Both the position numbers and the translations under genes were made by a program. Under the pieces are notes generated by a model. The model made no database searches, was not told the origin of the DNA, and saw only the letters and a program-made list of their open reading frames with translations. From the UHGV virus genome UHGV-0083175: DNA of 52,653 bases; one strand, 5' to 3'. Below, in pieces: positions 22,103-35,545 of the stretch; within the stretch, counting starts at the first letter, position 1; every line of letters starts with the position of its first letter. This DNA comes from a virus.

Positions 22103-22380
22103 TACCTGTGTGGAGCACGGCCTGCCCGGACTGGGCAGAGCGCCTGAAAAAGGGGCTGTCGATTATTCCGGCTCCGATTTACCCGGACCAGGCCGCACAT
22201 GCCCTGGCGATTTTTAAACAACTGCGGATTGTGGATGCACCGGGCAGCCCGACGTTCGGGGAGTCCTGTGCACCGTGGGTGTTTGATCTGGTGGCTGCCC
22301 TGTTTGGCTCCTACGATGCGCAGACCGGTGTACGCCATATAAAGGAAGTGTTCATTCTGATACCGAAAAATAATAGATAA
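22099..22380 (+). CDS. terminase large subunit, N-terminal fragment (gene split by satellite insertion)
   Basis: 93 codons ending ...KEVFILIPKNNR*; the remaining terL sequence resumes in frame ~9.5 kb downstream (...IPKKNSKSTLAAG...). Confidence 0.7.
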   Translation: MIPVWSTACPDWAERLKKGLSIIPAPIYPDQAAHALAIFKQLRIVDAPGSPTFGESCAPWVFDLVAALFGSYDAQTGVRHIKEVFILIPKNNR

Positions 22381-22543
22381 TAAAAAAACAAATAAAGTGT
22401 TTATTTGTTTTTTTCTACGTTTTATCAAATAGTTATGGTTATCTTTGCTCTATGTTTTTATGTGTTGCTAACGGCAGATTTTAACGCTTTGTTGTTGACA
22501 TGGACTAACCGATGAACCATAAACTTTATCTGTAGGGGCATTT

Positions 22544-23779
22544 ATGCTAATCAAACCGTTAAGCCATGTTGAAGTAAAGAACGCAAAACCAAAGGATAAA
22601 GATTACTCGCTTCATGATGGATTTGGGTTGTTGTTATATGTTTCAAGAAAAGGCTGTAAAACATGGCGTTTCAGGTATCAGCACCCCGACACCAAAAAAA
22701 GACAAACGCTTACCATTGGTCGTTATCCAGATTATTCAATAGCTGAGGCAAGAGAGGAAAGGGATAAAGCAAGGAAATTACTTTCAAGAGGTGTGGATCC
22801 TAATGAGTCTAAGCGCAAGGCAAAATCTGAACGAATTATGCTGAGGTCACAGACCTTTGAAAAAATAACAAATAACTGGTTTGAATTGTATTTAAAGGGA
22901 AGCAGAAGGGAAAATACAGTAAAAACAGTTAGCAGAGTTATTAAAGTTTATATTATTCCTGATTTTGGGGGTTGGACGATTTATGATATACGTGCTGATA
23001 ATGTATTGTCAGTTATTAGAAAATATGACGAAACGCCTGCACAGCAACGAAAAATAGTACAGGTTATGCGTCTTGTTATGGATTATGCCGTGAATGCTGG
23101 AATTGTTCAGTTTAATCCGTTGTCTCGTATTCATAAAGCGCTTCCACCTATGGAAGAGAAAAGCTTTAAGGCGCTGCCCATAGAAAGATTACCCGCTTTT
23201 CTTAATTGGCTTGAGTCAGAAAGTTGTCATCCATCAATAACATATGGTCTTCTTTTTATGATGCTGACAATGACCAGACCTAACGAGGCATTAGGTGCCA
23301 AATGGTCAGAACTGGACGTTGACAGAAAACTATGGACCATTCCAGCAGAGAGGATGAAGGGGAAAAGAGAACACATTATTCCTTTATCTTTACAGGCTGT
23401 TGAAGTGATAATGCGAATGAGAAAAATAAAACAAAGTGAGTATGTTTTTTTTGGTGCTCATTCAGTTGCAAAGGCAATAACGAGAGATGCTATTGTCAGT
23501 AGGGTTAATAAAAGCGAGTTTGCAAAGGAAATGACAGTACACGGATTCAGGTCAATGTGGAGCACATTACTCAATGAAGAGGGATTTAACCCCGATGTTA
23601 TAGAGGCTGCACTTGCACATAAGAGCGGAAATACTGTAAGGGATATTTATAACAGGACGTCATATATTGAACAGCGGGTAATAATGATGCAATGGATAGG
23701 TGATTTTGTCGATTCTGCAAGACGTGGGGTTATTGTTAGGACGCATGGTAAACGCGGTTTAAAATTGGTAAATGAATAA
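22544..23779 (+). CDS. int: tyrosine integrase (P4-type)
   Basis: 411 aa; P4-integrase-type N-terminus and C-terminal catalytic domain (HGFRS...LAH...Y); adjacent to the left junction. Confidence 0.85.
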   Translation: MLIKPLSHVEVKNAKPKDKDYSLHDGFGLLLYVSRKGCKTWRFRYQHPDTKKRQTLTIGRYPDYSIAEAREERDKARKLLSRGVDPNESKRKAKSERIMLRSQTFEKITNNWFELYLKGSRRENTVKTVSRVIKVYIIPDFGGWTIYDIRADNVLSVIRKYDETPAQQRKIVQVMRLVMDYAVNAGIVQFNPLSRIHKALPPMEEKSFKALPIERLPAFLNWLESESCHPSITYGLLFMMLTMTRPNEALGAKWSELDVDRKLWTIPAERMKGKREHIIPLSLQAVEVIMRMRKIKQSEYVFFGAHSVAKAITRDAIVSRVNKSEFAKEMTVHGFRSMWSTLLNEEGFNPDVIEAALAHKSGNTVRDIYNRTSYIEQRVIMMQWIGDFVDSARRGVIVRTHGKRGLKLVNE

Positions 23780-23791
23780 GGTGTACAATAT

Positions 23792-23998
23792 ATGAATGAT
23801 ATAAATAATAGTCAGATTTTGTTGCGTGATGATGTGATGAAAAAATTGCGATACAACAACGCGGCTGCTTTTCATATGTTTTTTAACAGAACGCCGGACT
23901 TTCCAAAGCCCTTCAAGATAGGCCGTCGCAATGCCTGGTATGAAGAGGATGTGCAAAATTGGCTTGATGAACAGCGAAGAAAAGCCCTTGAGGAGTGA
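23792..23998 (+). CDS. alpA: AlpA-family excisionase / transcriptional regulator
   Basis: 68 aa; FPKPFKIGRRNAWYEEDVQNWL matches the AlpA/Xis HTH signature; immediately downstream of int. Confidence 0.7.
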   Translation: MNDINNSQILLRDDVMKKLRYNNAAAFHMFFNRTPDFPKPFKIGRRNAWYEEDVQNWLDEQRRKALEE

Positions 23999-24056
23999 AC
24001 GTAAAAGAACAGGCGTCCTTAAAGGTCGCCTGTTATGTAGTAGTGGAATATTACAA

Positions 24057-24419
24057 TCATGTTTTTTTTGATGCTATGTAAGCAAGAATGCACGGTTCCT
24101 TTGCCAGTTGTGACCCTTTCGATCTGGCTGTTTTCGCACTGTATCCAGCAAGAATAGCGCACTGTGTCTGATTCAGCCCTTTCATCATGTAATCAGCAAA
24201 TTTCTTTTTTTGCTTCGTCAGCTTGTTTGTTTGGTCGTTTTTATCATCGTTTGCGGTAAAAACATTAGATGTGGTCTTAAGCTGATGTTTACAGGCTTCA
24301 ATTACCCACGATGAGAAGTTGGAGTGCGCTTTATCTCTTTCTATGCGTTTTTCAATATCAGCTAATAAGTCAGGCGGGAAGCGGATCCCCTTAAGTATCG
24401 CTTTGCGTGTTTTGTCCAT
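24057..24419 (-). CDS. RHH domain fused to a terS-like HTH domain (putative satellite regulator)
   Basis: N-terminal GIRFPPDLLADIEKRI...NFSSWVIEACKHQL (RHH); C-terminal KKKFADYMMKGLNQTQCAILAGYSAKTARSKGSQLAKEP near-identical to the helper TerS N-terminus. Confidence 0.55.
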   Translation of the reverse strand: MDKTRKAILKGIRFPPDLLADIEKRIERDKAHSNFSSWVIEACKHQLKTTSNVFTANDDKNDQTNKLTKQKKKFADYMMKGLNQTQCAILAGYSAKTARSKGSQLAKEPCILAYIASKKT

Positions 24420-24692
24420 TCATGGCCCCAAAATAAGTAGTGTTAACTTGTTACTATTTAACAGTTTTTGAGGGTGTGTTAAACAAAAAACTGGTTTGTG
24501 TTTAACGAAAATCGCTTCGTGTTAAACACGTTGCCTAGTTAGTGGGGACAGATGACGAGTTGATCAAACCTGCCGGATAACAGGCAAAGAAAAGGCCACC
24601 TGTCACGGTGGCCCTTCGACACAAATTTCGCGTTATCCCCAACGCATGAGCATCGCCGACAATGCCACATTTACGGCTGGTGGACAAGGCTA

Positions 24693-24920
24693 TCAGCCAG
24701 GCGGTCGGTTTTTAGTGGCTTTTAACCGCCGTGGGTATTTCTCGACAAAATCTTCAAGGGCAAATTTTTCTGGTGGCATTAAGCGCGGCGCTGGTGGTGG
24801 TATTTTTGTTCTGGTTAGTTCTTCCTCAACTCTGGCGCAGGCTTCTGACTGCCTTTGCCGGATGATTTCATCATCTTGCGTTTGCGTGTCTTGTATTGGT
24901 GATAGTGTGTTGTTGGTCAT
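24693..24920 (-). CDS. hypothetical protein
   Basis: 75-aa minus-strand ORF downstream of the small RHH gene; weak RBS. Confidence 0.3.
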   Translation of the reverse strand: MTNNTLSPIQDTQTQDDEIIRQRQSEACARVEEELTRTKIPPPAPRLMPPEKFALEDFVEKYPRRLKATKNRPPG

Positions 24921-24977
24921 GATACTGCCCTGTAAAGCAATGCGCCGTAGTACCTCACACCACGGCGCTGATAGTGA

Positions 24978-25157
24978 TTATTCTGATTCTTTGGCCTTGC
25001 GGCGCTGGCGGCGTTTGATCTCGCCTTTTGCTGCCGTAACTAGAAATCCGGCGGTACTTTCGCCAGGTTCTTTAAGTTGCTCAATATCGGTCATTACCTC
25101 ATGCGGGATTCTGACCGTTGTCATTTGTGATTTTGCGTTCTTTGCACCTGTTGCCAT
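24978..25157 (-). CDS. small DNA-binding protein (possible satellite repressor)
   Basis: 59-aa ORF with AGGAGA RBS (MATGAKNAKSQMTTVRIPHEVMTDIEQL...); faces a divergent promoter region containing inverted repeats. Confidence 0.45.
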   Translation of the reverse strand: MATGAKNAKSQMTTVRIPHEVMTDIEQLKEPGESTAGFLVTAAKGEIKRRQRRKAKESE

Positions 25158-25177
25158 TTCTGGTTCTCCTGATAATC

Positions 25178-25270
25178 GGTGTATTTCAGTATACGCAAAA
25201 AAAAAGATAAAAAAAGTCTTGCGGTGTATTTCACCTGAATGTAGATTTAAAAATGAAGGTGAAATACACC
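25178..25270. promoter_or_regulatory. operator-like inverted repeats in the satellite divergent control region
   Basis: GGTGTATTTCACC (25223-25235) and its exact reverse complement GGTGAAATACACC (25258-25270), plus a third half-site GGTGTATTTCAG at 25178. Confidence 0.45.
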
Positions 25271-25343
25271 TAAAACAACAACGCCCCGCAGTGATGGGAA
25301 CACATACGGGGCGTCTAACCAACAACGTAAACGAGGAGCCGTT

Positions 25344-25541
25344 ATGGTTGCCGTAAATCATATACCACACCTTGTACACACACAAACGGCCTTTGTGTGG
25401 CGTTTTCTGGCACTGAGTGCCGGAGAATCTCAAATCATCCACGTAACCGCCTGGACGGAACGCGAAGCGCGTAACCGTTGCCCGTCCGGTTGTGTTGCTG
25501 TATTTGCCGCCCGTATTCGTCAGGAGGTGCGCCATGATTAA
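25344..25541 (+). CDS. hypothetical protein (first gene of the satellite rightward operon)
   Basis: 65-aa ORF with GAGGAG RBS. Confidence 0.35.
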   Translation: MVAVNHIPHLVHTQTAFVWRFLALSAGESQIIHVTAWTEREARNRCPSGCVAVFAARIRQEVRHD

Positions 25542-25746
25542 TCTGTCACTTACTGACCTTAACCGCATTCAGTTTCGTGAGAAATTCACAGGGCAGCTAC
25601 TGGTCAATGTGGATAAAGGTCGCGTGGTGTGTAATTACCACTTACCAGATGAAGCAATTGTCGCCACAAGGGAATCATTACAGGAAATCACAAAACGTGC
25701 CGGAATGATTAACACGAATATTCAGGGGATGCTTTATGCACAATAA
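25534..25746 (+). CDS. hypothetical protein
   Basis: Internal ATG with CAGGAGGTG RBS; 70 aa. Confidence 0.4.
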   Translation: MINLSLTDLNRIQFREKFTGQLLVNVDKGRVVCNYHLPDEAIVATRESLQEITKRAGMINTNIQGMLYAQ

Positions 25747-25975
25747 AACCACACCGGACGCAGCCGCCGAAGCCATCAAAACGCTGATGCACGCGCTGAT
25801 TGATATTTCTGTTATCGCGGACAGGGCACATAAGCACGCCACCAGCGAAACAGAATATGCCGGTGCTTTCGTTCCTCACTCACTGGCTGTCATGCAATTT
25901 AGTGCTGATACGGCGCTGAATGAGGCCAAAGCTATCCTGATTGCTGATTGTGAAAATGGGGGGGGTTATGCGTGA
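25736..25975 (+). CDS. hypothetical protein
   Basis: 79-aa ORF, translationally coupled to neighbours. Confidence 0.35.
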   Translation: MHNKTTPDAAAEAIKTLMHALIDISVIADRAHKHATSETEYAGAFVPHSLAVMQFSADTALNEAKAILIADCENGGGYA

Positions 25976-26201
25976 TGATCGTTTTAATTCCCTGAAACAG
26001 GAATTTTCCGGCGTTCCTGATGATGCGGCTGATGCGCTTTCGTCAATGCCAGAACTTATTAGAGCGGCTTTTTTCTTACTTTCCACGAGAGAATATAAAT
26101 CAACGGGGCTTGATGTACTGAATATCGCCGCCGATTATGCGGAATATGTGGCAGAGGCGCGTTATAGAAGAAAATTTCCTGAGGATGTAAGCCATGCGTG
26201 A
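25968..26201 (+). CDS. hypothetical protein
   Basis: Internal start MRDDRF... of ORF 25941..26201. Confidence 0.35.
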   Translation: MRDDRFNSLKQEFSGVPDDAADALSSMPELIRAAFFLLSTREYKSTGLDVLNIAADYAEYVAEARYRRKFPEDVSHA

Positions 26202-26427
26202 TATTTACCACCAAACAATAGACCGCGCATTTCTTGCACTTTCTCACAGTGAAAACATGATGGAAATATTGCGCATATGGCTTGAAACACTTGGCGACAA
26301 TGAACGCGACAAACAAAAATCAAGAATTGCCACGGCATTAATAACGCTTCTTGAGCCTGTAATAATGGAACTGCAAGAAATAGATCTATTGCACGACAGA
26401 TATAAAGAACAGCACATCGGAGAATAA
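26194..26427 (+). CDS. hypothetical protein
   Basis: 77-aa ORF overlapping the upstream stop. Confidence 0.35.
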   Translation: MRDIYHQTIDRAFLALSHSENMMEILRIWLETLGDNERDKQKSRIATALITLLEPVIMELQEIDLLHDRYKEQHIGE

Positions 26428-26432
26428 AAATA

Positions 26433-26732
26433 ATGAAACTTAAATATTCTGGCTTAACTGCCAGTGGCAACACTCACCCTAAATTTACGCGCGGTGATAT
26501 TTACCGCGACCAGTACGGCGGCACGGTAATGATTAAGGGCGTGGCGGGACGGTGCGTAACTTACCGCCGTGAAGGTTACGAATATGATTGCGTGATGCCT
26601 GTTTATCAGTTCCGGCGTGATTTTTCTCTGGTACAGACCGCGCCGCATAACGTGCCCACCAGCAACGCCAGGGCACGGGCAAACATCCAGAAGCTGAAAA
26701 CCATGATTAACGGATTCAGGGGTAAAAAATGA
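26433..26732 (+). CDS. hypothetical protein
   Basis: 99-aa ORF immediately upstream of the primase-helicase gene. Confidence 0.4.
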   Translation: MKLKYSGLTASGNTHPKFTRGDIYRDQYGGTVMIKGVAGRCVTYRREGYEYDCVMPVYQFRRDFSLVQTAPHNVPTSNARARANIQKLKTMINGFRGKK

Positions 26733-28126
26733 AACTGGCACCGAATGTAAAACTGTTACCGAAAGATAAACACACCGAAGCGGTTATTTTTGCGGGTGAT
26801 AATGCTCACTCATTTGCAGAGCACTACATCATTGCACAGGCCAAAAAAGCAGGCGATCCAGTCCCTCCCGTTTACCTGGGGCGTTATCAGTTAAGCGAAC
26901 TGGATAACTTGCAGATTGTTGATAAAGGTCGGTTCAGGGCGAAAGTGATACGTGCCGGAAATATTGACGAAGTGCAGTTGTTAACCATCGCCACGAAACT
27001 GGCAATCGCAGGAGTCCAGGAAGCGCGCCTGTTTTCTGAAAATTTCGAATTGCTGGAGGAATGGAGCGACCAGCTTACACGGCTTAGGGAGACATGGGAA
27101 CGCGGGGAAAGCCTGAGCCACCAGCGAAAAACAAAGCTACCGATGAGCGTTGGATCTGCCGGATACGACACGCAATTAGATTACGTGGTAAAGGGGATTA
27201 TTCCGGCATCGTCGCTATGCAGCATATACGGGGCGAGCGGTTCATATAAATCGTTCCTTGCGGGTTCGTGGGCGTGTCACGTTTCCACGGGCCGCCAGTG
27301 GGGAGGCCGCAGGGTTGCACATGGTGCAGTTCTCTATGTGGTTGGTGAAGGCGGTATTGGTGTTCCGCGTCGTGTAAAAGCCTGGGAGGTTGTGCACGGT
27401 GAGCAGGTGAAAAATCTGTATCTGGTAAACCGTCCCATCTTTCCGGCTGTCCCGCTTGATGTTGATGAAATGGTTATCGCTGCCCGCCAGGTGGAACGGG
27501 AAACCGGTAAACCTGTACGCATGATTATTCTGGATACGCTGGCGCGTTGCTTTGGCGGCAATGATGAAAATGACTCCCGCGACATGGGGGCATTTATCCG
27601 TGGTTGTGACGAGCTTAAACGGCGCACAGGGGCCACTGTGCTGGTGGTTCACCATTCCGGCAAGGATGAAACAAAGGGGGCGCGTGGTTCCAGTGCATTT
27701 CGTGCTTCGCTGGATGCTGAATACCGGATACGCAGGGAGGACGCAGGAAGCGAAGCGCTGGTTATCTCATGCACCAAAATGAAGGACGCGGAGGAACTCA
27801 AAGAGGCTGCCTATGATTTGCGGGTGGTGGAGCTTTTTACCGACGCTGACGGGGAGTTAATCACGTCGCTGGTGGTGGTGGATAAGTCGCGCCCTCCCGT
27901 TGAACTGGAGCGCATCGAAGAGGCAGGCAACAAGACGGAAAACCATACCGCGCTATGGGGGTGTATCCGTTCACGCACACAGAACGGCGACAAGTGCACG
28001 ATCCCGCTGTTACGTGATGACATGAAAAAACTGGGGTACGAAATAAAGCACTTCCGGCGCTGGCTGGGCAAGCTGGAAAAAGACGGCGTTATCTATGTTG
28101 ACGGCGATGATGTAGGGCCACTGTAA
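26729..28126 (+). CDS. satellite replication protein (RecA-fold primase/helicase-type ATPase)
   Basis: 465 aa; Walker A-like GASGSYKSFLAG, Walker B region MIILDTLARCFGGNDEND and VLVVHHSGKD. Confidence 0.75.
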   Translation: MKLAPNVKLLPKDKHTEAVIFAGDNAHSFAEHYIIAQAKKAGDPVPPVYLGRYQLSELDNLQIVDKGRFRAKVIRAGNIDEVQLLTIATKLAIAGVQEARLFSENFELLEEWSDQLTRLRETWERGESLSHQRKTKLPMSVGSAGYDTQLDYVVKGIIPASSLCSIYGASGSYKSFLAGSWACHVSTGRQWGGRRVAHGAVLYVVGEGGIGVPRRVKAWEVVHGEQVKNLYLVNRPIFPAVPLDVDEMVIAARQVERETGKPVRMIILDTLARCFGGNDENDSRDMGAFIRGCDELKRRTGATVLVVHHSGKDETKGARGSSAFRASLDAEYRIRREDAGSEALVISCTKMKDAEELKEAAYDLRVVELFTDADGELITSLVVVDKSRPPVELERIEEAGNKTENHTALWGCIRSRTQNGDKCTIPLLRDDMKKLGYEIKHFRRWLGKLEKDGVIYVDGDDVGPL

Positions 28127-28328
28127 AAAGTGGGGGGCAAAAGTGGTGGGCATGGGGAATTTAACAAAATTTAAACACGACCCCCCACTTTTTGACCTGT
28201 ATACATCCCAAAAAGTGGGGAGCAAAAAAATACTTATGAAACAGCATGATAAAAATTACAAATCCCACGCCTTTAACGAGATGGGGAATTGTGAAAAGTG
28301 GGGAGTAAAAGTGGGTATAGGTGGGGAG
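28127..28328. repeat. iteron cluster (candidate satellite replication origin)
   Basis: Repeated AAAGTGGGG(A/G) motifs at 28127, 28140, 28210, 28294, 28307, 28320 plus inverted copy CCCCCCACTTTTTG at 28181, directly after the replication gene. Confidence 0.5.
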
Positions 28329-28580
28329 ATGACACAAAAACGCAGAGACAGAACACAGCCAAAATATAAAGCGTTAGACATGACAGAGCACGCTTTAAAG
28401 GTGGCAATCAGAACGATAGACCGCCACGCGGGGGAAGGATACGCGAAGGAACATCCCGACCTGATAAGCGCATTCATGACCACAGCGGCGGCAAACTTTG
28501 CCACGCTGACAGAACGGGAGATTGCCGAAGCGGAACAGGTAACAACCATCAACGTTAAAACCGGAGAGTTGGAATCATGA
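28329..28580 (+). CDS. hypothetical protein
   Basis: Internal start MTQKRRD... chosen because upstream codons lie in the iteron region. Confidence 0.35.
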   Translation: MTQKRRDRTQPKYKALDMTEHALKVAIRTIDRHAGEGYAKEHPDLISAFMTTAAANFATLTEREIAEAEQVTTINVKTGELES

Positions 28581-28882
28581 GCGAACCAAAATTTGGTGAA
28601 AAACTTTACAAGCACAACGGACGGATCACGATTCTGCAAATAAGCGCAGCTACACCAGGCTGGTGGGTTGAAACAGACGAAGGATCCTCACCCGTGGCAT
28701 CATGGGCGCTTTGTGCGCTTAGTTACCCTGACCGCGATGTGTATCAGGATATTCTGCCTGTGATATCCACTGACAAAGGCATGAAACCCGTAGACATCAA
28801 AAACATGGGTTTTCAGTGCGTAATGCTCACTGAAAAAATGATGGAAGAGATGAAAAAGAACAACGCCGGATCGCTTCACTGA
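28577..28882 (+). CDS. hypothetical protein
   Basis: 101-aa ORF overlapping the upstream stop. Confidence 0.4.
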   Translation: MSEPKFGEKLYKHNGRITILQISAATPGWWVETDEGSSPVASWALCALSYPDRDVYQDILPVISTDKGMKPVDIKNMGFQCVMLTEKMMEEMKKNNAGSLH

Positions 28883-28891
28883 GGTGGCAAT

Positions 28892-29290
28892 ATGACAGCA
28901 CAAATTGCAGCTTACGGGCGGCTGGTGGACGACCCGCAGGTAAAACAGACCAGCAAGGGCACACCGATGACGCTGGCGCGTATGGCGGTATCTTTGCCAT
29001 GCAGCCAGGCACAGGACGGACAGGCGACGTTATGGTTATCGGTCATCGCATTTGGCAAACAGGCCGACTTCCTGGCTAAACATCAAAAAGGAGATGTTGC
29101 CAGCGTATCCGGCACGATGCAGGTAAGCCAGTGGACAGGCCAGAACGGCGAAACGCGGCAGGGCTGGCAGGTTATCGCAGACAGCGTAATCAGTGCCCGA
29201 GGCGGGAACAGACGCAAAACCACAGGCACACAGGGTAATCAGCCACCAGCGGGAGGCGATGACCCTTACGGTGATGGTATTCCGTTCTGA
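28892..29290 (+). CDS. ssb: single-stranded DNA-binding protein
   Basis: OB-fold-like core (LARMAVS...LWLSVIAFGKQAD...) and acidic C-terminal tail ending DDPYGDGIPF. Confidence 0.7.
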   Translation: MTAQIAAYGRLVDDPQVKQTSKGTPMTLARMAVSLPCSQAQDGQATLWLSVIAFGKQADFLAKHQKGDVASVSGTMQVSQWTGQNGETRQGWQVIADSVISARGGNRRKTTGTQGNQPPAGGDDPYGDGIPF

Positions 29291-29300
29291 GGGGGTGAGG

Positions 29301-29573
29301 ATGGTACATGACCGCATAGCGGAGGAACTCGAGGCGAAAGGATTTTACCGGAGGGCGGCGGCGCGATGGGGTGAAGTCATGCAGCTGGTGGAGACAGACA
29401 AGGAACGGTATCAGGTTACGATGCGACGGCTGGAATGTTCCAGGAAGGCACAGAAGCCACCGGAGCCGCCGGATAACTTCGGAGACCTGAGAAAGGCAGT
29501 CGATCGCACTTATGCTGAAATGGGTATAGATGGTGCAGGCGATGAAGTATGGCGTAATTACCCAGACAGCTAA
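29301..29573 (+). CDS. PerC-family transcriptional regulator-like protein
   Basis: Internal ATG 29301; AEELEAKGFYRRAAARWGEVM resembles the PerC/Pch N-terminal motif. Confidence 0.45.
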   Translation: MVHDRIAEELEAKGFYRRAAARWGEVMQLVETDKERYQVTMRRLECSRKAQKPPEPPDNFGDLRKAVDRTYAEMGIDGAGDEVWRNYPDS

Positions 29574-29579
29574 GCACAT

Positions 29580-29603
29580 AGCCGGAGCAATCCGGCTTTT
29601 TTT
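29580..29603 (+). terminator. rho-independent terminator
   Basis: AGCCGGA-gcaa-TCCGGCT stem followed by TTTTTTT. Confidence 0.6.
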
Positions 29604-29691
29604 CGATCTCACATATCTTTAAAAATGGTTGATTGATTATAATCTATCGAAAATAATGATTATGAGATGATAAGCATCAGGAGGAAACAAA

Positions 29692-29886
29692 GTGGAACAG
29701 ATAAAGCAAAGCGCTACCGTGATGATTGATCACGAGATCCTAAACGAGCTTAAAAAACTTCAATTCGATGTTATTCGCCGGATGAATGAAGCTGGTATAT
29801 ACGGCAGAGCCGCCACGCCAACAGTAGGCCATCTTGCTCGCGTGCTGTTACGCGAACGCCTGGGCATTGCAACAGGTGAGGAATAA
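29692..29886 (+). CDS. hypothetical protein
   Basis: GTG start after AGGAGGA RBS; 64 aa. Confidence 0.35.
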   Translation: MEQIKQSATVMIDHEILNELKKLQFDVIRRMNEAGIYGRAATPTVGHLARVLLRERLGIATGEE

Positions 29887-29888
29887 CA

Positions 29889-30050
29889 ATGGTTATCACA
29901 GAACGCGAGGCAAGCATCATTAAAGCCATTGGCGAGGAAACAAGAGACACGATAGCGCCATTAATGGAAAAGATCGCAGAGCTTGAGACACGAATAAACA
30001 AGCTGAGTGATGAAGTTGAAGGCCTGATCTCGTTACTCGGTGAGCAATGA
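29889..30050 (+). CDS. small protein resembling the N-terminus of the helper head-associated repeat protein
   Basis: 53 aa, MVITEREASIIKAIGEE... versus MNERELSIIRALGEEF... at 36907; ends at the satellite cos-like site. Confidence 0.35.
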   Translation: MVITEREASIIKAIGEETRDTIAPLMEKIAELETRINKLSDEVEGLISLLGEQ

Positions 30051-30112
30051 CAGGGGGGGGGGAGTGTTCCGGCCGGAAAGTCGATCGCCCTGGACACCGC
30101 CCCCCGTCTCAT
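30051..30112. other. candidate cos site of the satellite
   Basis: G-run, GTCGATCGCCCTGGACACC core and C-run, paralogous to 21250..21312. Confidence 0.45.
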
Positions 30113-30180
30113 TCGTAGAAAATTTTGCTTTTCAAAAAAGTTACACGAAAAGTTACACCCCCTCAAAACGAGGTTTTTGC

Positions 30181-30669
30181 ATGGCATTAACGACCAAAAA
30201 AAAGCGGTTTGCTGATGCGTTATCAAGGGGCGCAAATCCCACGGAAGCCGCTATACATGCGGGATACAGCGAAAAGACCGCAAGGGTTAAAGGCTGGCAG
30301 CTATCCAACGATCCTGAGGTGAAAAAGTATCTTAAGGTTGTCACTCCTGATGTAACTTTTCAGGTTACAAAACCGAAAAAAGTTACAAAGAAAGTTACCG
30401 AAAAAGTTACACCGGAACGGGCATCAATCAGCACCATAGAACGGATGGACAACGGCTTGCCCGACCCTATCAAAGCTATGGGCAGGATACTGGCTGACAA
30501 CATAGACACAGATCCAAAACTGGCTTTAGATGCCGCGTTTAAGCTGGCCCAGTTCACCCACCGCAAGATCGGCAGCATTGGGAAAAAAGAGGTTAAAAAA
30601 CTCAATGCCGCGAATGTCTCCTCAAATCGGTTCCCCATCCCTAAGCCACCAACAGGCTTAAAACACTGA
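30181..30669 (+). CDS. terminase small subunit (satellite copy)
   Basis: Internal ATG 30181; N-terminal HTH KKRFADALSRGANPTEAAIHAGYSEKTARVKGWQLSNDPEV and C-terminal LALDAAFKLAQFTH homologous to the helper TerS. Confidence 0.75.
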   Translation: MALTTKKKRFADALSRGANPTEAAIHAGYSEKTARVKGWQLSNDPEVKKYLKVVTPDVTFQVTKPKKVTKKVTEKVTPERASISTIERMDNGLPDPIKAMGRILADNIDTDPKLALDAAFKLAQFTHRKIGSIGKKEVKKLNAANVSSNRFPIPKPPTGLKH

Positions 30670-30680
30670 GGTAGCGAACT

Positions 30681-30842
30681 ATGAACGAATACATCACAGA
30701 CCCTATTGATGTACTCACGGAAATCATGAACGACAAGCAGCAGCCAACCGAAATACGGTTACAGGCTGCCGCTGTTCTGATGCCATATTTTCACGAAACT
30801 CTAACCCCATGTTACCAGGAGGAAGAAGATGATGATTTCTAA
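30681..30842 (+). CDS. hypothetical small acidic protein
   Basis: 53-codon ORF between satellite terS and the MCP-like gene; not in the supplied track. Confidence 0.3.
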   Translation: MNEYITDPIDVLTEIMNDKQQPTEIRLQAAAVLMPYFHETLTPCYQEEEDDDF

Positions 30843-31755
30843 AAACATGAAAGGCGTGTCGGCAGTTCGCGCCGCCAGCGTGCTTACATCGTGTAAATTC
30901 AGCCATGCAGACGCAATTGAAATGACGAAAAAAAATGATCCGGCAGTATCGAAATTTCTTGAAAAATCCATTGTTGCCGGAATGACTACGGATAATATGC
31001 CGTCGCTGGTGGCAGAGCCGATAGTAAGAGAGCTTGGCGAGTATATTTTTTCGCAGTCTGTACCAGGCAAGCTAATCAGCAGCGCGCTGAATCTTCCGTT
31101 TGGCGCAAAATTGCAGTCAATATCAGGCAAGGGTAGTAAATGGCTTAAAGAAGCCGAAGAAATCCCTGTCAAAGAGGGAGAAGTAAACGAAAGTGCGCTA
31201 AAACTGTGCAAACTTGGCGCTATTGTGATGCTGAATAACGAGCTAATCAAATTTAGCACCCCTGGTACCAATTCAGCGATCAGAGACTTGATCACATCGG
31301 AATCGGTGAAAGAAATAGATAAAAAATTTCTTTCCAGTGACCAGGAGTTGGCGGGCGTATCCCCTGAGGGCGTGCTTAATGGTGCTGATGAGGCCGAAAA
31401 CTTCATAGAGCTTTTCAAAAAGCACATAGCGAACGGTAACACGCTTGCCACGTCGTCGCTAATCTTGCCCGTAGAAAACGCCTTACAGCTTACTGATGCT
31501 GAGTTCTGGCAGATAGAGCTTTTGAGAATACCGGTAATTGTGAGCGAACAGGCGGATCGCATGATGCTGATAGACGCTCAAAAGCTGATTATTAACGTTG
31601 AAGCCACGGTTATAACCCCAACTGATGAGGCGGTAATAAAAACCGAATCAGGGACGGTTAGCCTTTTCCAGAATGACGCTACAGCGTTCAGGGCAATCAC
31701 CTATTGCGGATGGCAAAAACTCGATAAGGCCGTCACCGTTCTGGCGCAATCTTGA
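30829..31755 (+). CDS. major capsid protein homolog (HK97-fold MCP domain only)
   Basis: 308 aa with AGGAGGA RBS; aligns along its length with the MCP portion of the helper protease-MCP fusion (AGMTTD/AGTTTD, LGAIVMLNNELIKFSTPG / VSAIAVLTEELIRFSSPA, IPVIVSEQ / LPVIVSQY). Confidence 0.65.
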   Translation: MMISKNMKGVSAVRAASVLTSCKFSHADAIEMTKKNDPAVSKFLEKSIVAGMTTDNMPSLVAEPIVRELGEYIFSQSVPGKLISSALNLPFGAKLQSISGKGSKWLKEAEEIPVKEGEVNESALKLCKLGAIVMLNNELIKFSTPGTNSAIRDLITSESVKEIDKKFLSSDQELAGVSPEGVLNGADEAENFIELFKKHIANGNTLATSSLILPVENALQLTDAEFWQIELLRIPVIVSEQADRMMLIDAQKLIINVEATVITPTDEAVIKTESGTVSLFQNDATAFRAITYCGWQKLDKAVTVLAQS

Positions 31756-31974
31756 TGTAGTGCGCCGCATTACTGGTTATGTGAATGCGGCGCATAGGGC
31801 CTACGAAAAACAAAATTAGTTTACGTTATCTTATGTAACCATATTTAACGGAGAAGACTAAAACGCGGACTATTTAGTGTCAGTGCGTGAGCCTAACAGC
31901 ATAATAAACAAGATATTAAGATAGCTTTACGCATACCCAAAAAAAACAGCAAGTCCACGCTGGCTGCCGGGATC

Positions 31975-33333
31975 ATGATGACGGCGCTGTTACTGAACTG
32001 GCGGCAGGCGGCGGGCTACACCATTCTGGCCCCGACCGTGGAGGTGGCGGCTAATGCCTTCAATCCTGCCAGGGATATGGTACGACGGGACGATGATCTG
32101 GATGACCTCTGTCAGGTGCAGACACATATCCGGACCATCACCCATCGGGTGACGGACACCACCCTGAAGGTGGTGGCAGCCGATCCGAATACGGTGTCCG
32201 GTATCAAGTCCGTGGGGACACTGATTGATGAACTGTGGCTGTTTGGCAAGCAGTACAAAGCGGAGGACATGTTACGTGAAGCCATAGGTGGCCTTGCCTC
32301 CCGCCCGGAAGGGTTTGTGGTGTATACGACCACCCAGTCGAATGAACCGCCCGCCGGGGTGTTCAGACAGAAACTGCAGTACGCCCGGGATGTGCGCGAC
32401 GGCAAAATTCATGATCCGCACTTTCTGCCGGTGATATTTGAGCATCCGCCGGAGATGGTGGAGCGCGGTGAGCACCTGCTGATGGAAAACCTCGCCATGG
32501 TCAATCCGAATCTCGGTTATTCGGTGGATGAGGCCTTTCTGTACCGGGAGTATCGTAAAGCCCGGGAAGCCGGTGAAGATACATTCCGGGGGTTCATGTC
32601 AAAACACGCCAATGTGGAAATTGGTCTTGCCCTGCGTTCTGACCGCTGGGCGGGTGCGGATTTCTGGGAGCAGCAGGGCAGGCGCGTCAGCCTGGACGAT
32701 ATTCTGCAGCGCGCTGATGTGGTGACGGTGGGGATTGACGGCGGGGGCCTGGATGATCTGCTGGGAATGTACGTGATTGGCCGTGACAGGGAAACCCGCG
32801 AATGGCTGGGCTGGGGCCATGCCTGGGCGCATGAAACCGCGGTGGTCAGACGGAAGAGTGAGGCATCCCGTTTTCAGGATTTTGTGGCCTGTGGAGACAT
32901 GACGATTGTCCGTCGGGTCGGGGATGACACGGCGGAAGTGGCGGAGTATGTGCGTCGTATTCATGAGGCTGAGTTACTGGATCATATCGGTATTGACCCG
33001 TCAGGTGTGGGGCAGATTCTGGATTCACTGGCGGAAGCCGGGATCCCCGACGGAATTGTTGTGGGGATAAGCCAGGGCTGGAAGCTGGGCGGGGCCATCA
33101 AAACCACCGAGCGCAAACTGGCTGAGGGAGTGCTGGTGCATGGTGGTCAGCCACTGATGGCCTGGTGCGTTGGCAATGCCCGGGTGGAGCCTAAAGGTAA
33201 CGCCATCCTTATTACCAAACAGGCCAGCGGACGGGGGAAAATTGACCCGCTGATGGCGCTGTTCAATGCGGTATCCCTGATATCCCTGAATCCGGAGCCC
33301 AAAAAGAAAGAATATGCGGTTTTTTTCATATAA
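31975..33333 (+). CDS. terminase large subunit, C-terminal portion (split gene)
   Basis: Frame open upstream to 31897 with no start codon, encoding ...IPKKNSKSTLAAGIMM (Walker A-like); LIDELW Walker B, nuclease motifs VTVGIDGGG and IGIDPSG. Confidence 0.7.
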   Translation: MMTALLLNWRQAAGYTILAPTVEVAANAFNPARDMVRRDDDLDDLCQVQTHIRTITHRVTDTTLKVVAADPNTVSGIKSVGTLIDELWLFGKQYKAEDMLREAIGGLASRPEGFVVYTTTQSNEPPAGVFRQKLQYARDVRDGKIHDPHFLPVIFEHPPEMVERGEHLLMENLAMVNPNLGYSVDEAFLYREYRKAREAGEDTFRGFMSKHANVEIGLALRSDRWAGADFWEQQGRRVSLDDILQRADVVTVGIDGGGLDDLLGMYVIGRDRETREWLGWGHAWAHETAVVRRKSEASRFQDFVACGDMTIVRRVGDDTAEVAEYVRRIHEAELLDHIGIDPSGVGQILDSLAEAGIPDGIVVGISQGWKLGGAIKTTERKLAEGVLVHGGQPLMAWCVGNARVEPKGNAILITKQASGRGKIDPLMALFNAVSLISLNPEPKKKEYAVFFI

Positions 33334-33396
33334 CCCTGTTCACCCTGTAACCATCATGGACCGCTGCGGCGGTTTTTTTATTTTCAGGAGGCTGAT

Positions 33397-35334
33397 GTGA
33401 CTCTTAAACGGGCCTGCTCCCTGCTGACGGTGAAATCCTTCAGTGAGGATGAGCGGGTGATCACCGGGATTGCGTCAACGCCTTCTCCGGATCGGGATGG
33501 TGACATCCTGGAGCCGGAGGGCGCGGAGTTTGGCAGTGCGATCCCGTTTCTCTGGCAGCATGACCATTCCCGCCCGGTGGGGCAGTGTACGGTGCGCCGG
33601 GTCAGCGAAGGGCTGGAAATCACGGCAACACTGGTGAAGCCCGTGCCGGATATGCCGTCGCAACTGGCTGCCCGGCTGGATGAGGTCTGGGCGGCCATTA
33701 AGACCGGGCTGGTCAGGGGGCTGTCCGTGGGCTTCCGTCCCCATGAATACACCTTTCTGGACGGAGGTGGACTGCATTTTCTGCGCTGGGAGCTGATGGA
33801 GGTGTCTGCCGTTACCGTGCCCGCGAATGCGGAATGCACCATCCGGACCATTAAATCTTACGACCGCCCGTTTTCTGCCGCGTCCGGCAACCGGAAACCG
33901 GTGGTGAAAATCGCATCTTCTGCCGGCGCTGCGGCACAGTCAACAACCGTTTTTCATAAGGAAAAGACCATAATGAATATTGGCGAACAGATTAAAAGTT
34001 TTGAAAACAAGCGTGCAGCGCTGGCAGCCTCCCTTGAGGAGGTCATGACCAAAGCCGCAGAGGAAGGGCGCACGCTGGATGTGGAGGAGGAGGAGCATTA
34101 CGACAACACCGCAGCGGAAATCCGTCAGGTGGATGCGCACCTGAAGCGCCTGCGTGAACTGGAAGCCGGTAAGGCCGCCACGGCGCAGCCAGTGAAACAG
34201 GCCGGTAACGGGAATGTGGCCGCGGTGGCTTCTGCGCCGGTGATCCGTGTGGAGCAGAAACTGGATAAGGGGATTGGTTTCGCACGTTTTGCCAAATCGC
34301 TGGCTGCGGCTAAAGGTGTCCGCTCTGAAGCCCTGGAAGTGGCCCGTCGTCAGTATCCGGATGACAGTCGTCTGCATCATGTCCTGAAATCGGCAGTGGG
34401 CGCGGGGACCACCACGGATCCGCAGTGGGCAGGCAGCCTGTCTGAATATCAGGAATACGCACAGGACTTTATTGATTACCTGCGTCCTCAGACCATTATC
34501 GGGCGATTTGGTCAGGGCGGGATCCCTGCACTTCGTCAGGTGCCGTTCAATATCCGTGTGCACGCCCAGGTGTCCGGCGGTGCTGCCGGCTGGGTGGGTG
34601 AGGGTAAGGCAAAACCCCTGACGAAGTTTGATTTTGAATCCATCACCTTCAGTCATGCGAAGGTGTCGGCCATTGCGGTACTGACGGAAGAATTGATCCG
34701 TTTTTCCAGTCCGGCTGCTGATGCACTGGTCCGTAATGCGCTGGCGGAAGCGGTGGTGGCGCGTCTGGATACAGACTTTGTGGACCCGAAAAAAGCGGCG
34801 GTGGCAGATGTCTCCCCGGCGTCCATCACCCATGATGTGAAGGGCACGGCATCAAGCGGTAACCCGGATGCGGATGCAGAGGCTGCGTTTGGACAGTTTG
34901 TGGCAGCAAACCTGCAGCCCACCGGTGCGGTCTGGCTGATGTCCAGCACAAATGCCCTGGCACTGTCCATGCGTAAAAATGCGCTGGGTCAGAAAGAATA
35001 CCCGGACATGACCCTGCTGGGTGGCTCCTTCCAGGGGCTGCCGGTGATTGTCTCTCAGTACGTGGGTGACCAGCTGGTGCTGGTGAATGCCCCGGATATT
35101 TATCTGGCGGATGACGGCGGCGTGGCAGTGGATATGTCCCGCGAGGCATCACTGGAAATGCAGTCTGAGCCGACCGGCGACAGTACCACGCCGTCGCCGG
35201 TGGAGCTGGTTTCCATGTTCCAGACAGGCAGCGTGGCCATCCGTGCGGAGCGCTGGATCAACTGGCGTCGTCGCCGTACCGCGGCGGTGGCGGTGATCAC
35301 CGGAGTGAACTATGGCAGTGCGTCCGGCGGCTGA
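33397..35334 (+). CDS. prohead protease fused to major capsid protein (HK97 type)
   Basis: N-terminal S78-protease-like region (GIASTPSPDRDGDILEP...LWQHD...SAVTVPAN), then scaffold-like coiled coil and HK97-fold MCP domain. Confidence 0.8.
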   Translation: MTLKRACSLLTVKSFSEDERVITGIASTPSPDRDGDILEPEGAEFGSAIPFLWQHDHSRPVGQCTVRRVSEGLEITATLVKPVPDMPSQLAARLDEVWAAIKTGLVRGLSVGFRPHEYTFLDGGGLHFLRWELMEVSAVTVPANAECTIRTIKSYDRPFSAASGNRKPVVKIASSAGAAAQSTTVFHKEKTIMNIGEQIKSFENKRAALAASLEEVMTKAAEEGRTLDVEEEEHYDNTAAEIRQVDAHLKRLRELEAGKAATAQPVKQAGNGNVAAVASAPVIRVEQKLDKGIGFARFAKSLAAAKGVRSEALEVARRQYPDDSRLHHVLKSAVGAGTTTDPQWAGSLSEYQEYAQDFIDYLRPQTIIGRFGQGGIPALRQVPFNIRVHAQVSGGAAGWVGEGKAKPLTKFDFESITFSHAKVSAIAVLTEELIRFSSPAADALVRNALAEAVVARLDTDFVDPKKAAVADVSPASITHDVKGTASSGNPDADAEAAFGQFVAANLQPTGAVWLMSSTNALALSMRKNALGQKEYPDMTLLGGSFQGLPVIVSQYVGDQLVLVNAPDIYLADDGGVAVDMSREASLEMQSEPTGDSTTPSPVELVSMFQTGSVAIRAERWINWRRRRTAAVAVITGVNYGSASGG

Positions 35335-35545
35335 GTCTGATAAGGAGGACGGGAGGCGTGTGCCTCCCGTAACAGGTTATGGCAAAGATCCGATATCTGC
35401 AGGGCACGCATGATGCCCGGGCCGGGGATATCCGTGATGTGGCACAGCCGTGTGCGGAGGTGCTGGTTCGCCTGGGAAAGGCGGAGTACATCACGGTGCG
35501 ACGTCCGGCAGGTCAGAAAAAGAAACGTGATGCGGAGCATGGCGA

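What the first reader, a model, noticed from the sequence alone, without database searches (positions are those of the whole stretch)
28892..29573. SSB and a PerC-like regulator carried by the satellite
The satellite encodes its own SSB (acidic DDPYGDGIPF tail) and, overlapping its 3' end, a small protein with a PerC/Pch-like motif (AEELEAKGFYRRAAARWGEVM). PerC-family proteins activate virulence loci in pathogenic E. coli, so the satellite may influence host regulation.
Basis: partly seen in the sequence, partly recalled or inferred. Interest (0 to 1): 0.4.

Follow-up and report, generated by a model that had tools for sequence, protein, structure and literature searches.

The report
Satellite SSB plus PchE-type PerC regulator
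A small phage satellite in this window carries its own single-strand DNA-binding protein and a PerC-family regulator, but the pair is a close copy of the SSB and pchE genes already named in E. coli O157:H7, and that PerC subgroup is reported not to switch on the LEE virulence island.

Summary
ORF 28892-29290 is an SSB (Pfam SSB, E=1.6e-16) with an acidic ...DDPYGDGIPF tail. ORF 29301-29573 is a full-length PerC-family protein (Pfam PerC, E=5e-43). The "overlap" is an artefact of the longest-ORF call. The conserved start is ATG 29301, 10 nt after the SSB stop.

Both genes are already known. The SSB is 99% identical to ECs_1587 and the PerC is 94% identical to PchE (ECs_1588). Those two genes are adjacent in E. 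coli O157:H7 Sakai prophage-like element Sp7. The PerC is only 38-41% identical to the LEE activators PchA and EPEC PerC and to PchD.

Published work reports that PchE does not activate LEE1. When over-expressed it represses curli and adhesion and raises flagellar expression. So "PerC family" is supported, but "activates virulence loci" is not supported for this subgroup.

The two genes close the satellite's replication operon: RepA helicase, ori iterons, two small ORFs, SSB, PerC, then an intrinsic terminator. They are facultative. Near-identical satellites carry neither gene, or SSB only. A contiguous SSB-PerC pair occurs in 718 of 5426 complete E. coli genomes. A primase-SSB-PerC arrangement recurs in other Enterobacterales genera.

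Verdict: correct observation, ordinary and already described, low interest.

The parts
22371..31935 (+). Approximate extent of the satellite. It is a helper-embedded PICI inserted in, and co-oriented with, the terL gene of a lambdoid prophage.
   Evidence: The terL N-fragment ends ...EVFILIPKNN at about 22370 and the reading frame resumes as IPKKNSKST at about 31930. The 31975-33333 ORF matches the TerL_nuclease domain. E. coli 90-3040 has the same arrangement, annotated as a terminase fragment, integrase ... capsid, then a terminase large subunit missing its N-terminus. Boundaries are approximate; only an imperfect ~14-nt core (ATACCSAAAAAWAA) was seen.
22544..23779 (+). Satellite tyrosine integrase
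   Evidence: Pfam Arm-DNA-bind_3, Phage_int_M and Phage_integrase.
23792..23998 (+). AlpA-like small HTH regulator (68 aa)
   Evidence: ORF seen. The positional equivalent of the 'helix-turn-helix transcriptional regulator' that follows int in L003 and L004. Not scanned separately.
26729..28126 (+). RepA-type replicative helicase (465 aa)
   Evidence: Pfam AAA_25, E=1.7e-43. Relatives are annotated 'helicase RepA family protein'.
28125..28310 (.). Probable replication origin: three 18-nt iterons AAAAAGTGGGGRGCAAAA spaced 85 and 83 nt
   Evidence: the repeat finder family D2. The position just after the rep gene is typical of PICI origins (established knowledge; PMC10111431, notes that replication genes colocalise with mapped origins). 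Function is inferred.
28329..28580 (+). 83-aa protein of unknown function
   Evidence: phrog_1231, E=6e-53. Conserved after the rep gene in L001-L005 and L043.
28577..28882 (+). 101-aa protein of unknown function; first gene of the facultative block
   Evidence: phrog_27268, E=8.4e-69. Its ATGA start overlaps the previous stop. Present in L001 and L002, absent in Sakai Sp7, L004 and L043.
28892..29290 (+). Single-strand DNA-binding protein, 132 aa, with C-terminal tip DDPYGDGIPF
   Evidence: Pfam SSB E=1.6e-16. PDB SSB hits. 131 of 132 aligned residues identical to Sakai ECs_1587, with a 4-aa linker deletion. dN/dS 0.02-0.13 against orthologues.
29301..29573 (+). PerC-family protein, 90 aa, a PchE (group 3) allele
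   Evidence: Pfam PerC E=5e-43 over the full length. 85 of 90 residues identical to Sakai PchE/ECs_1588; 38-41% identical to PchD, PchA and EPEC PerC.
29580..29603 (+). Intrinsic terminator closing the replication operon
   Evidence: Stem of 7 pairs followed by TTTTTTT. RNA fold -12.5 kcal/mol, z=-3.0. Homology to cfPICIs ends here, and homology to cassette-less PICIs resumes at 29575.
29629..29657 (+). Sigma-70-like promoter candidate for the downstream packaging genes (weak evidence)
   Evidence: TTGATT-17-AATAAT, 9 of 12 matches. It was the only hit in the region, and shuffles gave a mean of 2.0, so this is not significant on its own.
30181..30669 (+). Satellite small terminase subunit
   Evidence: Pfam Terminase_2 E=2.4e-10. 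phrog_641 E=2.3e-43.
30829..31755 (+). Capsid-like protein (308 aa)
   Evidence: Pfam Phage_capsid E=1.1e-6. PHROG major head protein.

Best explanation
The region holds the last two genes of the rightward replication operon of a ~9.6-kb phage-inducible chromosomal island (PICI). The island is embedded in the terL gene of a lambdoid prophage.

Gene 1 is a short homotetramer-type OB-fold SSB. I infer that it coats the ssDNA exposed when the satellite's RepA helicase opens the adjacent iteron origin. I also infer that its acidic ...IPF tip recruits host SSB-interacting replication and repair proteins.

Gene 2 is an allele of PchE, the group-3 PerC homologue of E. coli O157:H7. It is a small all-helical protein without a recognisable DNA-binding domain. 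By analogy with PchA, it would act on H-NS-containing nucleoprotein complexes at AT-rich DNA. By analogy with PchE itself, the expected effect on the host is lower curli and adhesion and higher flagellar expression, not activation of ler/LEE.

Both genes are facultative cargo of a variable slot between the origin and the operon terminator.

Shown here: family membership, orthology, gene order, terminator, facultative presence and purifying selection. Inferred: co-transcription, the SSB's role in satellite replication, and the regulatory targets and anti-H-NS mechanism of the PerC protein.
For: Identity:
- Pfam SSB and PerC matches lie far above their cut-offs.
- The window SSB and PerC are 99% and 94% identical to Sakai ECs_1587 and pchE/ECs_1588. 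Those genes are adjacent in Sp7, which also holds integrase, primase, capsid, portal and terminase genes.
- PerC is only 38-41% identical to PchD, PchA and EPEC PerC.

Operon anatomy:
- RepA stop at 28126, iterons at 28125-28310, then four tightly packed ORFs.
- The junctions are an ATGA overlap, a 9-nt gap and a 10-nt gap. A strong terminator follows at 29580-29603.

Facultative cargo:
- Compared with L004, a PICI 95-98% identical on both sides, positions 28564-29574 are an insertion.
- L043 has SSB without PerC. L003 and L004 have neither gene.

Functional constraint:
- SSB dN/dS is 0.02-0.22. PerC dN/dS is 0.17-0.23 for the diverged pairs.
- The SSB keeps equivalents of E. coli W54, F60 and W88 and an acidic tail ending in IPF.

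Prevalence:
- 718 of 5426 complete E. coli genomes carry the contiguous pair.
- 10 of 34 PerC loci from other Enterobacterales species have an SSB homologue next to PerC and a primase nearby: 9 have primase-SSB-PerC, 8 of them with a 9-11 nt SSB-PerC gap, and in one (L033) the SSB lies downstream of PerC.

Literature:
- PICIs carry PerC alleles (PMC6092414; PMC11773190).
- SSB is counted among PICI replication genes (PMC10111431).
- PchE phenotypes are described in PMC6265319 and PMC7369912.
- Pch acts by relieving H-NS silencing and lacks homology to DNA-binding proteins (PMC4764244).

Structure: the AF2 model is all-helical with pLDDT 85.6.
Against: - No experiment exists on this allele. It differs from Sakai PchE at 5 of 90 residues.
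- The PchE phenotypes in the literature come mostly from plasmid over-expression. Deletion had little effect.
- The anti-H-NS mechanism was shown for PchA, which is only 41% identical, and not for PchE.
- pchE expression was reported to fall on SOS induction. That fits poorly with simple co-induction as part of the satellite replication operon.
- Satellites that lack the SSB (L003, L004) evidently persist without it, so its contribution to replication is dispensable or is supplied by the host SSB.
- The window SSB has a 4-aa linker deletion not seen in any relative.
Confidence: 0.8

Rival explanations
1. The satellite PerC is a virulence activator that switches on ler/LEE, or a similar H-NS-silenced virulence locus, in the host, as EPEC PerC and PchA/B/C do.
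For: It is a full-length PerC family member. The residues invariant across PerC, PchA, PchD and PchE (L10, E11, G14, R17, R18, A19, R22, W23 and others) are all present. Some PICI-encoded PerC homologues are said to activate LEE (PMC6092414).
Against: It is 94% identical to PchE and only 39-41% identical to the proven activators. It lacks the C-terminal extension of PchA. Groups 2 and 3 Pch are reported not to be required for ler/LEE expression. The EcCIEDL933 and EcCICFT073 PerC-like genes had no effect on LEE1 fusions, and EcCIMP1_025 represses LEE1. Whether the host of this window has a LEE is unknown.
Confidence: 0.08
2. PerC here serves the satellite itself and not host virulence. On this reading it is a small helical, TPR-like adaptor made from the early/replication operon. 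It would relieve H-NS silencing of AT-rich satellite or helper genes, for example the 43-48% GC packaging module just downstream.
Against: Satellites with the same packaging module at 97-98% identity lack PerC entirely (L003, L004, L043). The same PchE-type gene is joined to two unrelated downstream modules: the cfPICI capsid operon and the TerS/capsid-like module. pchE expression drops on SOS induction. There is no Pfam TPR match even at E<=10, and short helical models attract TPR hits easily.
Confidence: 0.2
3. The SSB is mainly an interference or counter-defence factor and not a replication factor. It could compete with the helper or host SSB for partner proteins, or mask ssDNA from host defence sensors.
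For: It is dispensable in close relatives. It has a short linker and a divergent tip (GDGIPF versus DDDIPF in E. coli SSB). It sits in a variable cargo slot beside another accessory gene.
Against: There is no direct evidence. It lies next to the origin and the helicase. PICI SSBs are classed with replication genes in the literature. It is under strong purifying selection like a housekeeping-type SSB.
Confidence: 0.1

Closest known systems
PchE (ECs_1588) and SSB (ECs_1587) of E. coli O157:H7 Sakai Sp7. I take Sp7 to be the Sakai counterpart of EDL933 O-island 51 / capsid-forming PICI EcCIEDL933; that equivalence is an inference, not something I checked.
   Same: Same two genes in the same order, with a comparable ~10-nt gap. 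They are 94% (PerC) and 99% (SSB) identical. Both follow the 83-aa ORF downstream of the replicase, and the same terminator follows.
   Different: Sp7 uses a 710-aa primase where the window has a RepA helicase. Sp7 lacks the 101-aa ORF. Sp7 carries a full capsid/portal/terminase module where the window has TerS plus a capsid-like gene. Sp7 sits between roxA and phoQ and not inside a prophage terL. The window SSB has a 4-aa linker deletion.
EPEC PerC (pMAR2/pEAF) and EHEC PchA/B/C (group 1), activators of the LEE1/ler promoter
   Same: Same Pfam family, similar size, and the same conserved N-terminal motif LExKGxYRRAxxRW. The mechanism is probably related, acting on H-NS nucleoprotein complexes.
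   Different: Only 39-41% identical. The genetic context differs: a plasmid per operon, or the lysis region of a lambdoid prophage. LEE activation is reported for these proteins but not for the PchE group.
EcCIMP1_025, the PerC-like protein of PICI EcCIMP1 (PMC11773190)
   Same: A PerC-family gene carried as cargo by an E. coli PICI.
   Different: Reported to be about 40% identical to the EcCIEDL933 and EcCICFT073 PerC-like proteins, and to repress LEE1-lux in C. rodentium. I did not compare it directly because its sequence was not fetched.
Helper-embedded PICIs (HE-PICIs; PMC10111431)
   Same: [quoted passage not shown] A terminase large-subunit site is among those listed in the paper. SSB is counted in the PICI replication module.
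   Different: I did not test whether the integrase belongs to the clade described in that paper. The paper does not discuss PerC.
E. coli chromosomal SSB (PDB 1eqq)
   Same: OB fold. Equivalents of W54, F60 and W88 are conserved. The acidic C-terminus ends in IPF.
   Different: 132 aa against 178 aa, with a much shorter Gly/Gln-rich linker. There is no equivalent of W40. The tip is DDPYGDGIPF where E. coli has MDFDDDIPF.

Membership tests
PerC family (Pfam PF06069) | Profile match above the curated gathering score over the whole model | tested here: met
   145.7 bits against a 22.6 cut-off, E=5e-43, residues 1-89 on model positions 1-89 of 90.
PerC family (Pfam PF06069) | A protein of about 90 aa with the conserved N-terminal motif shared by PerC, PchA, PchD and PchE | tested here: met
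   Invariant columns M1, A7, L10, E11, G14, R17, R18, A19, R22, W23, M27, R36, R43, C46, G75 and R85 are all present.
PerC family (Pfam PF06069) | Transcriptional activation of the LEE1/ler promoter, the function that gave the family its name | not testable with these tools
   For the 94%-identical PchE, the literature reports no requirement for ler/LEE expression and no effect on LEE1 fusions.
Group 3 Pch (PchE) | Close sequence identity to Sakai ECs_1588 | tested here: met
   85 of 90 residues identical.
Group 3 Pch (PchE) | Synteny: directly downstream of a satellite SSB, within a PICI-type element | tested here: met
   ECs_1587 (SSB) and pchE are adjacent in Sp7. The order and gap are the same in the window.
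Group 1 Pch (PchA/B/C) | High identity to PchA and the 104-aa form with a C-terminal extension | tested here: not met
   41% identity. The window protein ends about 14 residues before PchA does.
Bacterial SSB (Pfam PF00436) | OB-fold SSB domain above the gathering score | tested here: met
   60.7 bits against a 26 cut-off. 25 PDB SSB chains matched at E<=3e-4.
Bacterial SSB (Pfam PF00436) | Acidic C-terminal tip ending in (I/x)PF, which recruits partner proteins | tested here: met
   DDPYGDGIPF in the window against MDFDDDIPF in E. coli SSB. Partner binding itself was not tested.
Bacterial SSB (Pfam PF00436) | ssDNA-contacting aromatic residues (E. coli W40, W54, F60, W88; the residue roles are from established knowledge) | tested here: inconclusive
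   Equivalents of W54, F60 and W88 are present (W48, F54, W81). There is no Trp at the W40 position.
Gram-negative PICI / helper-embedded PICI | int, then an alpA-like regulator, then a replicase with an adjacent iteron origin, then packaging-redirection genes; about 10 kb; no lysis or tail genes | tested here: met
   PGAP annotation of relatives L003, L004 and L043 agrees.
Gram-negative PICI / helper-embedded PICI | [quoted passage not shown] | tested here: met
   terL is split into 22099-22374 and about 31930-33333, with all genes on the + strand.
Gram-negative PICI / helper-embedded PICI | Induction and packaging by a helper phage | not testable with these tools
   This requires an experiment.
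TPR-like helical repeat (a structural resemblance only) | TPR geometry and TPR sequence profile | tested here: inconclusive
   [not shown]

The most novel reading that the evidence does not exclude
Satellite-borne PerC proteins may not be primarily virulence regulators. They could be small TPR-like anti-silencing adaptors that belong to the replication/early operon of PICI-type satellites across Enterobacterales, including genera without a LEE. There they would free AT-rich satellite or helper DNA from H-NS. On this reading, LEE activation by PerC and PchA/B/C would be a later co-option of a mobile-element counter-silencer. The recurrent primase-SSB-PerC arrangement with a fixed 9-11 nt SSB-PerC gap in 8 loci from other species is compatible with this. 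The facultative presence of PerC in near-identical E. coli satellites argues against an essential role.
Probability: 0.2. Interest if true: 0.45.

Novelty: already known. Interest (0 to 1): 0.15.

Why it matters
It matters little beyond correct annotation. The pair is an allele of ECs_1587 and pchE, genes named in E. coli O157:H7 Sakai. PerC homologues in PICIs, and SSB in the PICI replication module, are both described in the literature.

The practical point is that a PerC-family hit should not be read as "LEE activator". Subgroup matters, and this subgroup (PchE) is reported to modulate curli, adhesion and flagella.

The modest added value here has three parts:
- SSB and PerC occupy a variable cargo slot between the satellite origin and a conserved terminator.
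- A primase-SSB-PerC arrangement recurs in other Enterobacterales genera.
- The predicted PerC fold is an all-helical, TPR-like bundle. That favours action through protein or nucleoprotein contacts over a classical DNA-binding domain.

Tried and rejected
- DNA search of the region against the phage collection found no match. A protein search there gave only one 1.6-kb fragment at 37% identity. So the cassette is not found in deposited phage genomes.
- A PDB sequence search with PerC gave only chance-level hits (E>=0.2). No solved homologue exists.
- An Rfam scan of the whole satellite on both strands at E<=0.1 found nothing.
- The antisense 140-aa ORF 29190-29612 has no PHROG hit. I treat it as spurious.
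- The longer PerC starts were rejected. GTG 29193 and ATG 29259 would overlap the SSB gene. All characterised family members and the Pfam model begin at the Met of ATG 29301. The Shine-Dalgarno spacing is good for 29301 and only 2 nt for 29259.
- Long exact att repeats flanking the satellite were not found. Only an imperfect ~14-nt core was seen.
- Porter et al. 2005 (PMC543544), the primary source for PerC1/2/3 activity, is not held. Its conclusions are cited second-hand.
- The first literature search, with word-start matching, returned only noise.
- A Pfam scan for TPR families at E<=10 found none.
- The idea that PerC is the dedicated activator of the downstream packaging operon was considered and downgraded. 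That operon occurs without PerC at 97-98% identity, and PchE-type genes are joined to unrelated downstream modules.

Full report
**1. What is in the sequence**

The + strand between 28892 and 29573 holds two intact ORFs.

- ORF 28892-29290 encodes a 132-aa protein ending in ...GGDDPYGDGIPF. It matches Pfam SSB (PF00436, E=1.6e-16, 60.7 bits against a cut-off of 26). It also matches PHROG phrog_44 'single strand DNA binding protein' (E=2.5e-40) and 25 solved SSB chains, including E. coli SSB.
- The second protein contains AEELEAKGFYRRAAARWGEVM. It matches Pfam PerC (PF06069) from model position 1 to 89 of 90 (E=5e-43, 145.7 bits against a cut-off of 22.6).

The one factual error is the overlap. 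Only the mechanical longest ORF (GTG 29193) overlaps the SSB gene.

- EPEC PerC, PchA, PchD, PchE and the Pfam model all start at the Met encoded by ATG 29301.
- That ATG follows GAGGGGGTGAGG and lies 10 nt after the SSB stop codon.
- The antisense 140-aa ORF has no family match.
- No Rfam family matches anywhere in the satellite.

**2. Context: the satellite**

The genes lie in a ~9.6-kb element at about 22371-31935. Its genes, in order, are:

- a tyrosine integrase (22544-23779);
- a small AlpA-like HTH gene (23792-23998);
- Icd-like and DUF4222-type small genes, named from PGAP annotation of relatives;
- a RepA-type helicase (26729-28126; AAA_25, E=1.7e-43);
- three 18-nt iterons spaced 85 and 83 nt immediately after the helicase stop (28125-28310), which I take to be the origin;
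- an 83-aa ORF and a 101-aa ORF of unknown function (phrog_1231 and phrog_27268);
- SSB, PerC and an intrinsic terminator (29580-29603);
- two small ORFs, a small terminase (Terminase_2) and a capsid-like protein.

The element splits the terL gene of a lambdoid prophage. The N-terminal fragment ends ...EVFILIPKNN at about 22370. The frame resumes as IPKKNSKST at about 31930 and continues into a TerL nuclease domain. E. coli 90-3040 has the same configuration. This is the 'helper-embedded PICI' arrangement described in PMC10111431.

**3. What the two genes are**

The closest named relatives are in E. coli O157:H7 Sakai prophage-like element Sp7. There ECs_1587 ('single stranded DNA-binding protein') is directly followed by pchE (ECs_1588).

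- The window SSB is identical at 131 of 132 aligned residues. It lacks four linker residues (AARP) that Sakai has.
- The window PerC is identical to PchE at 85 of 90 residues.
- In one alignment, the window PerC is 94% identical to PchE, 38% to PchD, 41% to PchA and 39% to EPEC PerC from pMAR2.

It is therefore a group-3 Pch (PchE) allele and not a PchA/B/C-type or PerC-type activator.

**4. Functional constraint**

Both genes look functional.

- SSB dN/dS against three orthologues is 0.02-0.13.
- PerC dN/dS is 0.17-0.23 for the pairs that have diverged enough to measure (dS about 0.23-0.31). The closer pairs give higher, noisy values.
- The SSB keeps the equivalents of E. coli W54, F60 and W88, but not W40. 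It keeps an acidic tip ending in IPF.
- The E. coli reference sequence I recalled from memory was checked and is identical to PDB 1eqq_A.

**5. The genes are facultative cargo of a defined slot**

A blastn comparison gives the boundaries.

- The window is 95-98% identical to PICI L004 (E. coli JNEC-KY171) on both sides.
- Positions 28564-29574 (orf101, SSB and PerC; about 1 kb) are absent from L004. There the 83-aa ORF runs almost straight into the same terminator.
- Homology to the capsid-forming PICIs that carry SSB-PerC (L001, L002, Sakai Sp7) stops at 29601-29603, the end of the terminator.
- L043 (E. coli CD45) has SSB but no PerC in the same slot. L003 has neither gene.

The block from about 27200 to 29600 is 54-57% GC. 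The rest of the satellite is 37-48% GC, which fits a mosaic origin.

**6. Prevalence**

- 1593 of 5426 complete E. coli genomes have a megablast match to 28892-29603. Of these, 718 cover at least 80% of it, meaning a contiguous SSB-PerC pair.
- No complete E. coli genome contains this exact mosaic. For 21500-35500, no record reached 80% coverage.
- A pattern scan of one genome per bacterial species found 34 PerC loci, nearly all titled as Enterobacterales.
- Ten of those loci have an SSB homologue (49-69% identical) next to PerC and a P4-alpha-like primase nearby. Nine have the order primase-SSB-PerC, and eight of them have a 9-11 nt SSB-PerC gap. In the tenth (L033) the SSB lies downstream of PerC.
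- Five more loci have the primase directly followed by PerC.
- The genera are Escherichia albertii, Atlantibacter, Enterobacter, Kluyvera, Shimwellia, Lelliottia, Pantoea, Chimaeribacter, Lonsdalea and Erwinia.

**7. How it most likely works**

SSB. From its position next to the helicase and iterons, and from the literature's placement of SSB in the PICI replication module, I infer that it supports satellite replication after induction. Its IPF tip would give access to host SSB partner proteins. It is dispensable in close relatives, so the host SSB can presumably substitute.

PerC. The family has no recognisable DNA-binding domain and no solved structure.

- An AF2 model built from 27 homologues is confident (mean pLDDT 85.6; above 92 for residues 1-50) and all-helical.
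- No Pfam TPR profile matches, so this is a resemblance and not a membership.
- For PchA, the published mechanism is relief of silencing by the H-NS/StpA/Hha complex (PMC4764244).
- For PchE, the published phenotypes are as follows. It is not required for ler/LEE expression. Over-expression represses csgD, curli, biofilm and HEp-2 adhesion. It increases flagellar expression. Its expression falls on SOS induction (PMC6265319, PMC7369912).
- PMC11773190 adds that the EcCIEDL933 and EcCICFT073 PerC-like genes do not affect LEE1 fusions. It also reports that another PICI PerC homologue represses LEE1.

My best explanation is therefore a PchE-type modulator of H-NS-bound, AT-rich promoters. It would affect adhesion and motility genes in the lysogen, and it is not a LEE activator. 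Only family, orthology and anatomy are shown here. Targets and mechanism are inferred.

**8. Rivals**

This is unlikely given the subgroup (confidence about 0.08).

(b) A satellite-intrinsic counter-silencer.

- It is suggested by the recurrent primase-(SSB)-PerC arrangement in genera that, by general knowledge, are not known to carry a LEE.
- It is also suggested by the terminator and AT-rich region downstream.
- It is weakened because PerC is absent from satellites with the same packaging module, and because PchE-type genes are joined to unrelated downstream modules.
- Confidence is about 0.2.

(c) SSB as an interference or counter-defence factor. No direct evidence supports this (confidence about 0.1).

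**9. Novelty and verdict**

PerC alleles in E. coli PICIs were pointed out in 2018 (PMC6092414) and again in 2025-2026. pchE and the adjacent SSB are annotated in the Sakai genome. Helper-embedded PICIs were described in 2023. The window adds a new allele and a new mosaic of known modules.

The feature is ordinary and I score its interest low.

Noticed in passing
window 22099-22374 and about 31930-33333 (satellite about 22371-31935): The satellite is inserted in, and co-oriented with, the terL gene of the surrounding lambdoid prophage. It splits the gene at the Walker-A-coding segment (EVFILIPKNN | IPKKNSKST). This matches the published 'helper-embedded PICI' configuration. E. coli 90-3040 shows the same split.
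   Followed up: partly
window 28125-28310: Three 18-nt direct repeats AAAAAGTGGGGRGCAAAA, spaced 85 and 83 nt, lie immediately after the RepA stop codon. This is probably the satellite replication origin. It also means the 5' part of the mechanical ORF 28143-28580 is not coding.
   Followed up: partly
window 28564-29574 compared with L004 10208-10231 and L043 8408-8818: The slot between the origin-proximal 83-aa ORF and the terminator is variable among otherwise 95-98% identical PICIs. It is empty in L003 and L004, holds SSB only in L043, holds SSB+PerC in Sakai Sp7, and holds orf101+SSB+PerC in the window, L001 and L002.
   Followed up: yes
window about 29200 (SSB residues 103/104): The window SSB lacks four linker residues (AARP, or TVRP in others) that are present in every relative examined. 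This is a 12-nt in-frame deletion. It also has W where relatives have Y at residue 92.
   Followed up: partly
window 27200-29600 against the rest of 22400-32000: GC content is 54-57% in the RepA 3' half, SSB and PerC. It is 37-48% elsewhere in the satellite and 37-40% in the integrase region. The high-GC stretch coincides with the block homologous to capsid-forming PICIs (27117-29603), which suggests recombinational mosaicism.
   Followed up: partly
window 30181-30669 and 30829-31755 against 21539-22102 and 33397-35334: The satellite's TerS belongs to the same Pfam family (Terminase_2) as the TerS of the interrupted prophage. The satellite's capsid-like protein matches the same Phage_capsid family as the capsid domain of the prophage's 645-aa protease-capsid fusion. 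This suggests packaging and capsid redirection using captured helper-type genes.
   Followed up: no
window 30134-30159 and 30376-30413: Direct repeats AAAAAAGTTACAC... lie upstream of and within the satellite terS gene. The internal copies encode the KKVTKKVTEKVT stretch. Their significance is unknown; a pac-type site or simply a coding repeat are both possible.
   Followed up: no
window 24057-24419 (- strand): A 120-aa minus-strand ORF contains a segment (KKKFADYMMKGLNQTQCAILAGYSAKTARSKGSQLAKEP) that resembles the N-terminal HTH of the satellite TerS. The positional equivalent in L003 is annotated as a partial terminase small subunit. It could be a divergently transcribed regulator derived from TerS.
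   Followed up: no
L011-L013, L015-L018, L032 (PerC at about 6001; 1806 in L017, 4673 in L032): In Atlantibacter, Enterobacter, Kluyvera, Shimwellia and an unnamed Enterobacterales genome, a P4-alpha-like primase is followed by an SSB (tails ...PPFDDExPF) and then, 9-11 nt later, a PerC-family gene. Five further loci (Enterobacter, Pantoea, Chimaeribacter, Lonsdalea, Erwinia) have the primase directly followed by PerC.
   Followed up: partly
[not shown]
   Followed up: partly
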